DNA of 30,762 nucleotides, taken from a virus. Lineage: Duplodnaviria > Caudoviricetes. The position numbers were made by a program, and so were the translations under genes. Position 1 is the stretch's first letter. Every line of letters starts with the position of its first letter. The notes beneath the pieces were generated by a model. The model worked only from the letters and a program-made list of their open reading frames with translations. It was not told the origin of the DNA and searched no databases. The DNA is taken from the IMG/VR virus record IMGVR_UViG_3300039918_000017, positions 1 to 30,762 of that record. The stretch is one strand, 5' to 3'. Shown one piece after another: positions 12,127-16,185 of this stretch.

Positions 12127-12400
12127 TGGTTGCCATGGTTGCCGTCGATTGATCCAGCGGCAACCATGATGGCAACCAATATCTGACCTATTATCATGAT
12201 CTTAGGTCAGGTTCAGGCATATGGTTGCCATGTTGCCACGCATCGCGTCGCGCGCACGTGATCGCGCGCAACCGCGCATGATCGCGCGCAGGCGAGACAG
12301 CGCCAAATCGCGGCAACATGGCAACATTGTACGTAAGCCGTTGATATAGAGTACGTTTTATGTGGCAACATGCGTCATCATAGCGGCAACCATGGCAACC
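12127..12400. repeat. Iteron array, putative replication origin
   Basis: 11 GGCAAC/GTTGCC copies in both orientations, a palindrome at 12183-12210 and an AT-rich patch at 12326-12362. Confidence 0.7.
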
Positions 12401-12690: not shown

Positions 12691-12735
12691 CACGCCGGTA
12701 ATTGGTCCGGGTGGCGCGGCAAGGAGGCCGACCCA

Positions 12736-12909
12736 ATGACCAGAGCAATCATCGAATATGGATGCGAGACGCTGGACGTCCTGATCCCCACCGGCACCGA
12801 TCTGGACGACGCCTTTGACGCGATCGACGCGGACAGCGGCGAGAGCCTGCGCATCAACGGATGGATGATCGAACATATCCAGTTCGACCGGGCGGGGAGC
12901 GTTTACTGA
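12736..12909 (+). CDS. Small acidic hypothetical protein (57 aa)
   Basis: Not in the ORF track. RBS AAGGAGG at 12721; MTRAIIEYGCETLDVLIPTGTDLDDAFDAIDADSGESLRINGWMIEHIQFDRAGSVY; the stop overlaps the next ATG (TGATG). Confidence 0.75.
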   Translation: MTRAIIEYGCETLDVLIPTGTDLDDAFDAIDADSGESLRINGWMIEHIQFDRAGSVY

Positions 12910-13224
12910 TGAACCGCTACGCACCCGCCGGAGCGATCCGCGTCGCCGACAAGCGCAGCAGCGCCGTTGTCTATCTCTACACCACATCGCGCGGCGCGCC
13001 TGCCGCCATCGCCTATCACGGCCGCGCCGAAAAGCAGGACTGGTGGCACAGCTTCAAGGACGAGGCGCGCCGTGAAGCCTATGTGCGCAGCTTCTTCGCT
13101 GGCCGTCAGGCGATCGAGCAGCGCGCCCGCGATCGCCGCGCCGAGCGCAGCGCCTTTCGTCATGGCTACAAGGTCGGCGACCTGTTCCGCGCCATGTGGG
13201 GCTACGACCAGACGAATATCGACT

Positions 13225-13530
13225 TGTATGATCCGGGCCTTGTCAAGATCCCATTGAACGGTTCCTTCTGTTGACGGGCTGGGGGCCCCCACACGCAATG
13301 CTCAAGGATTGGCTTCATTCGTTCCGAGGTCAGCTGATGCACTATCCGTGCATAGACTTGTATCCGGTCGCGGCCGTAGCCGCGTACCATAATCCGTATT
13401 CACATCCCCGGATCGAGCAAAGGCGGATGCGGACCAAACTACTACTGGGCGTTTTCAGGCGCCATCAACTTTCCCGGTCACACATCACACCAATCCGCGT
13501 CGCCTTATCGAGCCTGTTGCAACATAAGCA
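13225..13530 (-). ncRNA. Candidate bridge/seekRNA in the long non-coding end of IS110
   Basis: About 305 nt non-coding, downstream of the recombinase, with hairpins and short matches to the target and the donor junction. Boundaries are unknown. Confidence 0.6.
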
Positions 13531-14682
13531 TCAGGCGGCGCGGAGCTCGGCACCTTGAGGGACCAGACCGGTCTCCACAAAGCGCCAAAGCGCGATTAAC
13601 AATTTTCGGGCGAGCGCAACGATCCCGACCTTTGCCGCGCGAGCGCCGTTGCCTTTGAACCGGTTGCGATACCAAACGGTCAGTTCGCTACTTGGCTGAT
13701 ATTTCAACCAACACCAGGCAAGTTCCACCATCTGCACACGTGTGCTTCGGTTACCGGCTTTGCTGATGCCCTGATCACGCGACACGTCGCCGCTGGCGAA
13801 GGGCGCCGGAGCTAACCCAAGGAAGGCCGCGACGTGTCGTCGGCTTTCGAACTTTCGGCAAAAAACCTCTGCAACCAACATTGCCGCGCTGTTCGGACCA
13901 ATGCCCTTTAGCTGCTCAAGGCGAACCGCTTTCTCTCGGCATGGGAAGGTAGACTCCTCATGGAGCACAACTTCAGCGCGGTCCCGCTCGATGTCCTTGA
14001 TTTGATCGTTGAGCAACGCGAGCCGTTCGAAACAGCGCTCAATTTGTCGATGAAGGTTTGGTGGCAAAGGCCGCCCGTCGCCGGTGCGCATCTCGTCGAG
14101 CTGTTTTGACCAGTCACCGCCCTTGATGGCTTTGACAGTTCGTATGCCCTGTAATGCAAGTAGCCCCCTGATCCGAGAGATAATTCGGGTGCGCTCGTGC
14201 ACGAGATCGCCGCGCTCCCGCATTACTCTGCGCGCGTCCTCCTCCTCGGGGGAGGGCACGTCCACGACACGGCACACGCTTTTGTCGCCAGCGAGATAGG
14301 CTTTTAGGATCCCGATCATTGCTTCGGCATCGATCCGGTCGGTTTTTGCGCGCCTGCCTCGCCGCGACACGAGGAAGCTGGCGGGATCCAGCACATAGGT
14401 ATCGATGTCGTTCGACCGCAGTAGCCTTGCGAGCCAGAAGCCATCATATCCAATCTCGAAGCACAGGCGAATGGCGGCAGGTTCACCGATACGATCAGCG
14501 GCCTTGCACTCAAGATTGTGAAGGTGACTGATCAGTGCCGCGCTGTTCCCGGCAGGAATTGTCCGCAGGGAAGGCTTCGCCGCTCCTGGTGAGAGCGAGG
14601 CAACAAGCCAGTTGCGCTTGCTGAGCTCAACGCTGACAATCACAGAAGTCTTGGGGCAGTAATCTGACGACGAGTTCTCCAT
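13531..14682 (-). CDS. IS110-family transposase/recombinase
   Basis: 383 aa; RuvC-like residues in 'SVELSK', 'CFEIG', 'AKTDRIDA'; C-terminal 'GIG', 'GLAP...ASG', 'ISKAGN', 'VALARKL'. Confidence 0.95.
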   Translation of the reverse strand: MENSSSDYCPKTSVIVSVELSKRNWLVASLSPGAAKPSLRTIPAGNSAALISHLHNLECKAADRIGEPAAIRLCFEIGYDGFWLARLLRSNDIDTYVLDPASFLVSRRGRRAKTDRIDAEAMIGILKAYLAGDKSVCRVVDVPSPEEEDARRVMRERGDLVHERTRIISRIRGLLALQGIRTVKAIKGGDWSKQLDEMRTGDGRPLPPNLHRQIERCFERLALLNDQIKDIERDRAEVVLHEESTFPCREKAVRLEQLKGIGPNSAAMLVAEVFCRKFESRRHVAAFLGLAPAPFASGDVSRDQGISKAGNRSTRVQMVELAWCWLKYQPSSELTVWYRNRFKGNGARAAKVGIVALARKLLIALWRFVETGLVPQGAELRAA

Positions 14683-15061
14683 TGTAGCGTTCTCCGTGAG
14701 GTTTGACGGAACAACGGCATAGCCGATCCGGCCTGCATAGGATCTATTACGAGGTCACCGCCCTGCGCGGCCAGACCATGCTGATCGTCCGCAAGATCGC
14801 CCAGGCGCGCAAGGCGACGGCATGGGAGCAGGGCGAATGCGTGCCCCTGCCCGGCCAATATGTCGGCGAGGAAATCCGGGTGCGGGCGCAGGAACGCTAT
14901 ATCCGCGTCGGCCACCAGCACGCCTTCCACGAAGCGCCCAAGATGGTCGCCGGCGTGCCGACCTACGCCGCCAGCCACTGGACCAGCTACGCCTGACCCC
15001 ATCGCACGAGGCGCGGACATGATCCGCGCCTCCACGATGCGGCCAAGCAAGGAGCGATGCT

Positions 15062-15487
15062 ATGACCTACCCACCGCCACACAGCGCCTATCAGCACGAA
15101 CTTTCAGCCAATCGCCACACGTCGCCCCATGGCGACCAGCTGCGCGCCGAGGACAACACCCGTCCGCTCGTCGGCGAGTTGCTGCGCCCTGGAATGATCG
15201 TGCGCACCAACTACGGCACCGGCCCTTTCATGATCGAGGCGGTCAACCATTACCGCGTGTACGACGGCTTTTGGGCATGGACGCTGGTCCTCAACTACCA
15301 GCGCGACGGCCGATGGCCCGCGCGACCCAACGATCACGATCGGGGCTGGATCAACGAAGTCGTCGTCGAATGGGAGGGCGATAAACCGCGCTTTCGGATG
15401 CTGTTCGCCATCAACGACGACGAAGTGTTCATCGTCGCCGACGCTGCCGCTCGCGAAGAGCGCTCCGGCCAGCTGAGCATGTTTTGA
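15062..15487 (+). CDS. Hypothetical protein (141 aa)
   Basis: RBS AAGGAG, GC3-biased codons, ends 'QLSMF'. Confidence 0.8.
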   Translation: MTYPPPHSAYQHELSANRHTSPHGDQLRAEDNTRPLVGELLRPGMIVRTNYGTGPFMIEAVNHYRVYDGFWAWTLVLNYQRDGRWPARPNDHDRGWINEVVVEWEGDKPRFRMLFAINDDEVFIVADAAAREERSGQLSMF

Positions 15488-16185
15488 TGATCCAGCTCGA
15501 TCTCCTCGACGCCTCGCCGCGCGTCCTGATCGCCTGCGAATGCTCCGGCACCGTCCGTGACGCGTTCCTGGCGCGCGGCTTCGACGCCTGGTCATGCGAC
15601 CTCAAGCCCGACGAGAGGCGCAGCAACCGCCATATCACCGGCGACGCGCGCGATATCATCCATTGGGGCTGGGACATGCTGATCGTGGCGCACCCGCCCT
15701 GCACCCGGCTTTGCAACAGCGGCGTGCGCTGGCTGACCGATCCGCCGCCTGGACGCACGCGCGCCGACATGTGGGCCGAGCTGGACGAGGCGGCCGCCCT
15801 GTTCTCGGACTTCCTGCACGCGCCGATCGCGCGCATCGCCGTCGAAAATCCGATCATCCACCGCCACGCTAAGGCGCGCATCCGCGACTATCGCGAACCG
15901 GCGCAGACCATCCAGCCATGGCAGTTCGGCCACCGCGCGTTCAAGCGCACCTGCTTCTGGCTCAAGAACCTCGATCCCCTGACCGAGACAAAGCGGCTCG
16001 ATCCGCCTGCCCCCGGCACCATCGCGCACAAGCGCTGGTCGAGCATCCATCGCCACACGGGCTGGGGCCAGGCCGGCGAGGCCCGCGCCGCCAACCGCTC
16101 CCGCTTCTATCCAGGCGTCGCGGCCGCGATGGCCGACCAATGGGGCGCGGCGGCGATGGCGGACATTCGGAGGGCGGCGGCATGA
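15484..16185 (+). CDS. Short phage DNA cytosine-5 methyltransferase-like protein
   Basis: 'VLIACECSG' (motif I-like), 'HPPCT' (catalytic PC), 'AVENP' (motif VI), 'QPWQFGH...KRTC'. Confidence 0.8.
   Translation: MMIQLDLLDASPRVLIACECSGTVRDAFLARGFDAWSCDLKPDERRSNRHITGDARDIIHWGWDMLIVAHPPCTRLCNSGVRWLTDPPPGRTRADMWAELDEAAALFSDFLHAPIARIAVENPIIHRHAKARIRDYREPAQTIQPWQFGHRAFKRTCFWLKNLDPLTETKRLDPPAPGTIAHKRWSSIHRHTGWGQAGEARAANRSRFYPGVAAAMADQWGAAAMADIRRAAA

What the first reader, a model, noticed from the sequence alone, without database searches (positions are those of the whole stretch)
13225..13530. Candidate bridge/seekRNA with readable target and donor guides
Seen (plus-strand text): ACTACTAC at 13438-13445 matches the target ACTATTAC at 7/8, and the mismatch would be a G-T wobble for a minus-strand RNA. 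CTTGTAT at 13357-13363 equals core plus one donor flank, and its context GCATAGACTTGTAT resembles the junction GCATAGGATCTTGTAT. CAAGATCC at 13244-13251 is the exact reverse complement of the junction GGATCTTG. The order on the RNA is target guide, then donor-left, then donor-right. Stems are present, e.g. TCCG..CATCC/GGATGCGGA at 13393-13433. Known: IS110 bridge RNAs carry such guide loops, located downstream of the gene in IS1111-type elements. Caveats: the matches are short, I found no clear second target guide, and the 13244 match overlaps a -35 box. Inference: a programmable RNA-guided recombinase of a little-studied subgroup.
Basis: partly seen in the sequence, partly recalled or inferred. 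Interest (0 to 1): 0.75.

Follow-up and report, generated by a model that had tools for sequence, protein, structure and literature searches.

The report
Four-guide bridge RNA, ISRel9-type element
This stretch is the tail of an intact jumping gene lodged in a phage gene, and it carries four short segments that match the element's insertion site and its own ends and change in step with them across distant relatives, so it very likely encodes the guide ("bridge") RNA of a known kind of programmable DNA-inserting enzyme, here in an untested branch.

Summary
They lie in the 3' non-coding end of an intact 1,521-bp IS110-family element (13225-14745, CT core) that splits a phage gene. Comparison of 58 related elements with both ends (25 clusters) shows a minus-strand two-loop RNA at about 13303-13496 with four guides: target 13465-73 and 13439-45, donor 13392-95 and 13357-63. 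All four covary with target or donor (z 4.3-8.4; controls 1.2 and -1.2; 22 of 25 clusters parsed), and base 13356 follows the target as an IS621-type handshake (21 of 22). The layout is IS1111-like, but the inverted repeats are only 3-8 bp and the first catalytic Asp is Glu. The nearest named relative I compared is an ISRel9-family transposase (44.5%). Close relatives mostly sit in DUF3768 genes (18 of 23 flanks). Expression and activity are not shown. The scan has noted such RNAs in other genomes. Known mechanism, little-studied variant.

The parts
13225..14745 (-). IS110-family insertion sequence, 1,521 bp, counting one copy of the 2-bp core (CT on +, at 13223-24 and 14744-45)
   Evidence: Relatives at 95-100% share exactly these ends with other flanks; public contigs leave the window at 13214-21 and 14749-52; removing it leaves a stop-free host frame
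13531..14682 (-). Recombinase, 383 aa; catalytic set E19/E76/D115/D118 and S297-G298
   Evidence: PF01548 + PF02371; NF033542 196 bits, cut-off 140; weak hits to ISCro4 and IS621 chains; residues kept in 118-121 of 121 proteins
13303..13496 (-). Predicted bridge RNA: target loop, then multi-branch donor loop; true 5' and 3' ends unknown, may reach about 13296-13520
   Evidence: Model R1 hits 66 places in 100 sources (the window was a seed); folding of 13296-13520 gives this layout; no Rfam match
13465..13473 (-).
   Evidence: z 6.6, n=22; z 6.2, n=25; 8 matches + 1 wobble for the L005/L007 targets
13448..13463 (-). Hairpin between the two target guides
   Evidence: 95.3% of cells paired, 2 of 4 pairs with two-sided changes
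13439..13445 (-).
   Evidence: (z 8.4)
13426..13486 (-). Closing stem of the target loop, 13476-86 with 13426-35
   Evidence: Inner 3 pairs 100% paired in 16 sequences; full stem in the folded model
13319..13416 (-). Donor loop; closing stem 13406-16 with 13319-29, hairpin 13366-88, extra hairpin 13338-52
   Evidence: compensatory changes of the closing stem visible in L016 and L028/L029
13392..13395 (-). 5' donor guide GGAU; reads as 14740-43 of the left end; short, and the weakest of the four
   Evidence: z 4.3-4.4, n=22; not picked out by the column scan
13357..13363 (-).
   Evidence: exact in 20 of 22; 8 of 9 independent changes followed on both sides
13356..13356 (-). Predicted handshake base of the donor loop; complementary to target base 13222
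   Evidence: 16/17; 21 of 22 clusters and 52 of 55 elements
13241..13246 (-).
   Evidence: 24 nt from the end of the core in 21 of 25 clusters; the consensus scan of the linear element finds no promoter
14739..14744 (-). GATCCT, candidate -10 box 17 nt after the -35 box in the circle
   Evidence: function inferred
13214..13224 (+). Target half-site plus core
14744..14750 (+). Core plus other target half-site
12909..14996 (+). Interrupted phage gene of unknown function (188 codons without the element); its 5' part matches phrog_37844
   Evidence: portal, capsid, tail and primase genes elsewhere in the window

Best explanation
The region 13303-13496 carries four segments that match the element's target and its own joined ends and covary with them across distant relatives, and it most likely encodes the two-loop bridge RNA that would guide the adjacent IS110-family recombinase. 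Shown: element ends, CT core, intact gene, four covarying guides, a covarying handshake base, conserved stems. [quoted passage not shown] The guides of this subgroup fit best the conserved Ile-Asp-Tyr-Tyr codons of DUF3768 genes; the phage gene here offers a look-alike site.
For: Position-free test, 25 clusters: own target and donor score above permuted ones (z 8.5, 6.2, 8.3; 0 of 20,000), wrong-strand controls z -0.3 and 0.9. Target-blind model alignment: diagonal of matches at 13444-41 and 13361-59. Anchored parse, 22 of 25 clusters: z 6.6, 8.4, 4.3, 6.8; handshake 21 of 22; controls z 1.2 and -1.2. Tree-independent pairs: donor follows the guide on both sides at 8 of 9 changed positions, target at 16 of 32 (11 one side, 5 neither), handshake 3 of 4. 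Stems 94.9% paired with 24 two-sided changes, 31-41% when slid. One contig of run X12 runs from 14743 into 13223 on the same strand, the predicted junction. Mechanism: Durrant 2024, Hiraizumi 2024, Siddiquee 2024.
Against: No direct evidence of the RNA: the RNA runs are contigs, which show neither strand nor level. The raw 306-nt region folds no better than shuffles (z -0.68). The junction contig has 28 aligned letters on its short side, under the tool's standard of 31, and could come from a tandem copy. Ends of distant elements rest on a motif (left 106 of 117, right 58 of 84 loci), not on empty sites. The parser missed 3 of 25 clusters and by eye chose the wrong hairpin in several more. The 5' target guide shifts register by 1-3 nt and gave only one clear column; the 5' donor guide is 4 nt and gave none there. 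Permutation values ignore relatedness. In this copy base 13438 pairs with the target rather than the donor, a state that in IS621 hinders exchange. Activity of the Glu-for-Asp site is inferred from recent spread only.
Confidence: 0.9

Rival explanations
1. Only the first loop acts as a guide, as a short seekRNA of about 80 nt; the donor-like segments are kept for another reason and the ends are read by protein.
For: For ISEc11 the short RNA with only target matches was abundant and sufficient (PMC11187229 discussion). The 5' donor match is only 4 nt.
Against: The 3' donor guide follows the right end in 19/19, 18/19 and 19/19 clusters and at 8 of 9 independent changes; the base after it follows the target in 21 of 22, which is what handshake pairing predicts. 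The inverted repeats available to a protein are only 3-8 bp.
Confidence: 0.07
2. One reading: one target guide, with donor guides at 13357-63 and 13244-51 and a stem at 13393-13433.
For: Exact 8/8 match at 13244-51, 0.5% in shuffles; the stem pairs above shuffled columns (64.5% vs 55.4%) and appears in the free fold of the whole region.
Against: 7/8 or better in 5 of 58 elements; outside the conserved RNA; 3 of its 8 bases are the -35 TTG; the stem breaks in about a third of cells.
Confidence: 0.02
3. No functional RNA; the matches are chance or shared descent.
For: Single matches are short (7.5% by chance for the target octamer); no Rfam family; whole-region fold z -0.68.
Against: Covariation survives clustering, strand controls and independent pairs; targets are foreign DNA that differs at each insertion.
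Confidence: 0.01

Closest known systems
IS1111-group seekRNA elements ISEc11, ISPa11, ISKpn4, ISPst6 (Siddiquee 2024, PMC11187229; sections 6, 13, 14, passages and source data read)
   Same: Long non-coding end after the gene; top-strand match 5' of the bottom-strand match; 7 and 3 nt beyond an ATG/CAT inverted repeat; junction promoter predicted; GL-P----SG motif. The paper's source data list ISRel9, ISSph11, ISGdi7 and ISMno20 as IS1111 family.
   Different: Perfect inverted repeat of 3 bp here and 3-8 bp (median 4) in 25 clusters, against the usual 11-13 (IS5708 control: 11); 383 aa against 330-350; first catalytic residue Glu; donor guides and a handshake base are readable.
IS621 / ISCro4 bridge RNA (Durrant 2024 PMC11208160; Hiraizumi 2024 PMC11208158; passages and named sections read)
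   Same: Two loops, four guides, CT core. Read on the CT strand the loop order is the same, donor positions 6-10 are the same (A, T, C, T, T), ATA and TAT flank the donor, and the handshake covaries at target position 7.
   Different: RNA lies downstream of the gene, and gene and RNA are on the strand opposite to the CT core; the donor loop is multi-branched; the 5' target guide carries at most the second core base; the protein is a distant relative (E 7e-07).
ISRel9 / ISAzs35 / ISMno20 / ISMno25 / ISGdi7 cluster of ISfinder elements
   Same: Same recombinase motifs in Durrant's Supplementary Table 1; an ISRel9-family transposase is 44.5% identical, and its locus L146 shows the same end motifs and loop layout by eye.
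   Different: Far below the identity of one element; plasmid copies at 96-99% are annotated only as 'IS110 family transposase'. I could not compare with ISSph11, whose sequence I did not see. I found no paper text on the RNA of this cluster.
ISEc21 (IS110 group; PMC11187229 section 12 passages)
   Same: Aims at conserved codons of another mobile element's gene.
   Different: Its RNA is upstream of the gene with the opposite guide order; its target is an IS3 transposase motif, here DUF3768.

Membership tests
IS110 family (broad), bridge-RNA-guided recombinase | RuvC-like domain plus Tnp domain with Ser-Gly | tested here: met
   PF01548, PF02371; NF033542 above cut-off; S297-G298
IS110 family (broad), bridge-RNA-guided recombinase | DEDD catalytic tetrad | tested here: inconclusive
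   E76, D115, D118 present; first position is Glu in 118 of 121 proteins, gap in 3. That E19 fills the place of IS621 D11 is inferred from its position; the structure job did not finish
IS110 family (broad), bridge-RNA-guided recombinase | Insertion around a short shared core without a longer duplication | tested here: met
   CT at both junctions, host frame intact without the element; right core AG in 49 and AA in 9 of 58
IS110 family (broad), bridge-RNA-guided recombinase | Non-coding RNA with target loop and donor loop, two guides each, covarying with DNA | tested here: met
IS110 family (broad), bridge-RNA-guided recombinase | RNA expressed, bound by the recombinase, needed for movement and reprogrammable | not testable with these tools
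   Only contigs of RNA runs were available
IS110 family (broad), bridge-RNA-guided recombinase | Circular intermediate with junction promoter | tested here: inconclusive
   One junction contig with 28 letters on the short side in 1 of 8 runs laid; -35 spacing kept in 21 of 25
IS1111 group | Long non-coding region downstream of the gene | tested here: met
   About 306 nt downstream against about 63 upstream
IS1111 group | Top-strand target match 5' of bottom-strand match | tested here: met
   13465-73 precedes 13439-45 on the RNA; rule
IS1111 group | Terminal extensions of 7 and 3 nt beyond the inverted repeat | tested here: met
   Holds in the 25 clusters, but the end motifs used to find the ends impose this spacing; independent for the close group
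IS1111 group | Sub-terminal inverted repeats of 11-13 bp (7-17 in Durrant) | tested here: not met
   3 bp here; median 4, maximum 8, 7 or more in 6 of 25
IS1111 group | Transposase of 330-350 aa in the tight IS1111 clade | tested here: not met
   383 aa; 25-30% identity to ISEc45, ISEc66, IS5708, ISSso6. No tree against reference elements was built
IS110 group (IS621-like) | RNA in the left end, upstream of the gene, bottom-strand match first | tested here: not met
IS110 group (IS621-like) | CT core, short ATA/TAT repeat, handshake at position 7 | tested here: met
   Met when read on the strand opposite to the gene (definitions)

The most novel reading that the evidence does not exclude
The ISRel9/ISGdi7 branch is a third layout of bridge recombinases. 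It has the IS1111 arrangement (RNA after the gene, reversed guide order) with IS621-type short ends, CT core, full donor loop and handshake, and a Glu-Glu-Asp-Asp active site. It would show that the reversed order of seekRNAs is a matter of which strand is called top and not a different mechanism, and it offers thousands of natural RNAs, many aimed at conserved codons of other mobile elements (DUF3768; IS3-, IS5/IS4- and IS630-type transposases).
Probability: 0.55. Interest if true: 0.55.

Novelty: new variant of a known kind. Interest (0 to 1): 0.42.

Why it matters
The mechanism is known since 2024, so a specialist would expect an RNA here. The added value is narrower. Siddiquee et al. left open whether IS1111-type elements move as IS110-type ones do and how their ends are recognised; this branch gives comparative evidence for donor guides and a handshake in a downstream RNA, with exact bases to mutate. 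The human-cell screen of 72 orthologues drew on the IS621-like clade, so this large branch (7,956 of the 8,000 scored protein clusters at E 1e-20 or better; clade limits not drawn) with a 9+7-nt target and a changed catalytic residue is an untested source of programmable recombinases. The preferred target, a gene of unknown function, is a small ecological lead.

Tried and rejected
Rfam: no match in the window. Promoter and terminator scan of 13150-14800: no promoter; two terminator-like sites at chance level, inside the gene. Free folding of the whole 306 nt: not better than shuffles. First right-end pattern was one base too long and missed nearly all ends; corrected. First anchored parse often took outer stems for inner hairpins; refined, where 3 of 25 clusters (L053, L095, L123) stayed unparsed and were left out. 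A second, wider RNA model was not built, so distant elements are aligned by a model of 16 close seeds. RNAalifold paired the loop of the extra hairpin with the 5' closing strand; I prefer the outer stem because L028/L029 change both of its sides, but did not test this formally. No phage in the annotated collection matches 12700-15500, and no run laid covers the empty site, so the uninterrupted phage gene was not seen. RNA-run contigs cover the element but say nothing on expression. Pfam on 81 flank pieces of 23 distant clusters gave hits for 6 clusters only. The structure prediction did not finish: no model, no fold search. Literature searches found no text on this cluster's RNA, on EEDD in IS110, or on DUF3768 as a target among the papers listed; figures, bioRxiv supplements (86 bridge RNA models of the Evo-PIN preprint) and the cut part of Durrant's tables were not seen and may hold a prediction for it.

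Full report
Setting. The window is a 30.8-kb phage contig (portal and capsid; tail, primase, methylase) and is the whole of its assembly. ORF 13531-14682 on the minus strand is an intact 383-aa IS110-family recombinase. A scan of species genomes gave 56 loci, about half at 84-100% identity and mostly from sphingomonads. Aligned to them, the element runs from 13225 to 14745 with CT at both junctions; without it the host frame 12909-14996 has 188 codons and no stop. Contigs from eight public runs cover the element and leave the window within a few bases of these ends. The element is thus recently mobile and its ends are secure.

The observation. All quoted strings are present. Singly they are weak: 7.5%, 1.15% and 0.5% in 2,000 shuffles. 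I therefore gathered relatives: 56 loci from genomes, the best 80 of 584 from metagenomes, 9 from viral contigs. A left-end motif was found in 106 of 117 loci with enough upstream DNA and a right-end motif in 58 of 84 with enough downstream DNA. Fifty-eight elements, the window included, had both ends and 9 bases of flank on each side; they fall into 25 clusters with recombinases 42-100% identical to this one.

Covariation. First, without any alignment, each non-coding end was searched for its own target and donor words and for those of the other 24 clusters. Own words scored higher: z 8.5 for the left target plus core, 6.2 for the reverse complement of the right target, 8.3 for the right donor end, none of 20,000 permutations as high; wrong-strand controls gave -0.3 and 0.9. 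Second, a covariance model built from 16 non-coding ends with no target information found 66 matches in 100 sources, all on the recombinase strand. Among 56 full-length matches (25 clusters at 70%), a scan of every RNA column against every DNA position gave two diagonals: 13444-13441 with the four target bases before the core (16/21, 20/22, 17/22, 21/21) and 13361-13359 with the three variable right-end bases (19/19, 18/19, 19/19). It also tied 13356 to the first target base after the core (16/17). Unrelated columns reached z of about 3-3.8, with one 4.4 on only 3 of 25, so only these signals stand clear. Third, a parse anchored on hairpins (22 of 25 clusters) recovered the two 5' guides, whose register varies: target z 6.6, donor z 4.3, with controls at 1.2 and -1.2. 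Fourth, on a tree of 49 recombinases, independent pairs with differing guides showed the DNA following on both sides at 8 of 9 donor positions, 16 of 32 target positions (11 on one side, 5 on neither; some pairs include mis-parsed elements) and 3 of 4 handshake positions; where the guide base was the same the target differed at 6 of 36.

Anatomy. On the minus strand the RNA reads: closing stem 13476-86; 5' target guide 13465-73; hairpin 13448-63; 3' target guide 13439-45; closing stem 13426-35; donor-loop stem 13406-16; 5' donor guide 13392-95; hairpin 13366-88; 3' donor guide 13357-63; handshake base 13356; extra hairpin 13338-52; stem 13319-29; and a terminal helix 13489-96 with 13306-13. 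The 17 core pairs are formed in 94.9% of cells with 24 two-sided changes and fall to 31-41% when slid; I drew them from these sequences, which favours them. In this copy the guides pair at 6+2 wobble of 9, 6+1 wobble of 7, 4 of 4 and 7 of 7.

Mechanism. By IS621 (PMC11208160, passages and section 12; PMC11208158, passages and section 11; PMC13626964, passages) and ISEc11 (PMC11187229), I infer excision to a circle, a junction promoter, one transcript through gene and RNA, processing, and four-guide synapsis with serine-mediated exchange at the core. TTGAC sits 24 nt from the end of the core in 21 of 25 clusters, which puts a GATNCY hexamer 17 nt downstream in the circle. One contig of transcriptome run X12 crosses from 14743 to 13223, as a circle would, but with only 28 aligned letters on the short side. 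The donor-loop handshake base matches the target in 52 of 55 elements. The target-loop base after the core equals the donor partner in 12 of 22 clusters and the target partner in 9 of 22; this copy is of the second sort, which in IS621 disfavours exchange. The right core reads AA in 9 of 58 elements, which fits a tolerated first core base. Expression and activity are untested.

Targets. Of 23 flanks of the close subgroup scanned, 18 are DUF3768 genes cut at the Ile-Asp-Tyr-Tyr codons (several are the same site in related hosts; one flank was too short to scan). A plasmid copy is annotated beside such a fragment. The window's copy hit a phage gene with Asn-Ile-Asp-Tyr-Tyr. Of 23 distant clusters, 6 had a flank piece with a Pfam hit: five transposase domains and one homeodomain-like domain. 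Targeting of conserved codons in mobile genes is known for ISEc21.

Comparison. The recombinase falls with ISRel9, ISAzs35, ISMno20, ISMno25 and ISGdi7 in Durrant's Supplementary Table 1, and an ISRel9-family protein is 44.5% identical. Siddiquee's source data label four members of this cluster IS1111. The element meets the IS1111 rules on RNA position, guide order and 7+3 extensions and has the multi-branch donor loop noted by Durrant. It fails the inverted-repeat rule (3 bp; 3-8 in 25 clusters; IS5708 control 11) and the length range, and the first catalytic position is Glu in 118 of 121 proteins. Read on the CT strand, donor, core, loop order and handshake are those of IS621. It works like a bridge recombinase, belongs to the broad IS110 family, and is typical of neither group.

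Novelty. No Rfam family. My eight searches showed no text on this cluster's RNA. Against novelty: Durrant's models predict a bridge RNA in 93% of IS1111 elements, and a 2026 preprint built 86 models for 32,190 RNAs (section 8 read; its supplements are closed, and Durrant's tables are cut), so a prediction for this branch may already exist. I saw the abstract and section 4 of review PMC13604230 and passages of the Perry preprint and of 10.64898/2026.08.14.744561. The scan holds no note on this protein or place but several on bridge RNAs in other genomes; I did not check them and they did not shape this reading. Verdict: a real, well-supported bridge RNA, two guides reassigned, a new variant of a known kind; interest 0.42.

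Noticed in passing
L002:2958-4149: The 3' 632 bp of the element (end of the gene, RNA, right end) is repeated head to tail at least twice more; the right core is joined to an internal AG at window-equivalent 13852-53 whose downstream bases resemble the target flank. Possibly self-targeting that amplifies the RNA; an assembly artefact is not excluded.
   Followed up: partly
flanks of L001-L029, L063, L071, L150: The close subgroup inserts mostly into one codon position of DUF3768 (PF12599) genes, 18 of 23 flanks scanned; the function of that gene is unknown.
   Followed up: partly
flanks of L030, L057, L046, L095, L099, L053: Distant members sit in or beside other transposase genes (rve_3, DDE_Tnp_1, HTH_Tnp_1, DDE_3) or a homeodomain-like gene. 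By eye, the L066-L135 group inserts at a Trp-Phe-Gln-Asp-Glu motif that I recall as typical of IS630 transposases (no call names it).
   Followed up: partly
Could be an alternative fold; unexplained.
   Followed up: partly
window 14626-14628 (codon 19 of the recombinase): Glu replaces the first Asp of DEDD in 118 of 121 proteins; a search for IS110 with EEDD found no paper.
   Followed up: partly
L017, L018, L021, L048, L063 right ends: The RNA region is intact but the sequence diverges before the expected right end, in L018 right after TTGAC: truncated or further-interrupted copies.
   Followed up: no
window 12130-12400: Non-coding stretch with many short direct and inverted copies of GGCAAC/GTTGCC words; possibly a phage origin or packaging region.
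   Followed up: no
window 15484-16185: Phage DNA methyltransferase gene (phrog_757) close to the insertion.
   Followed up: no
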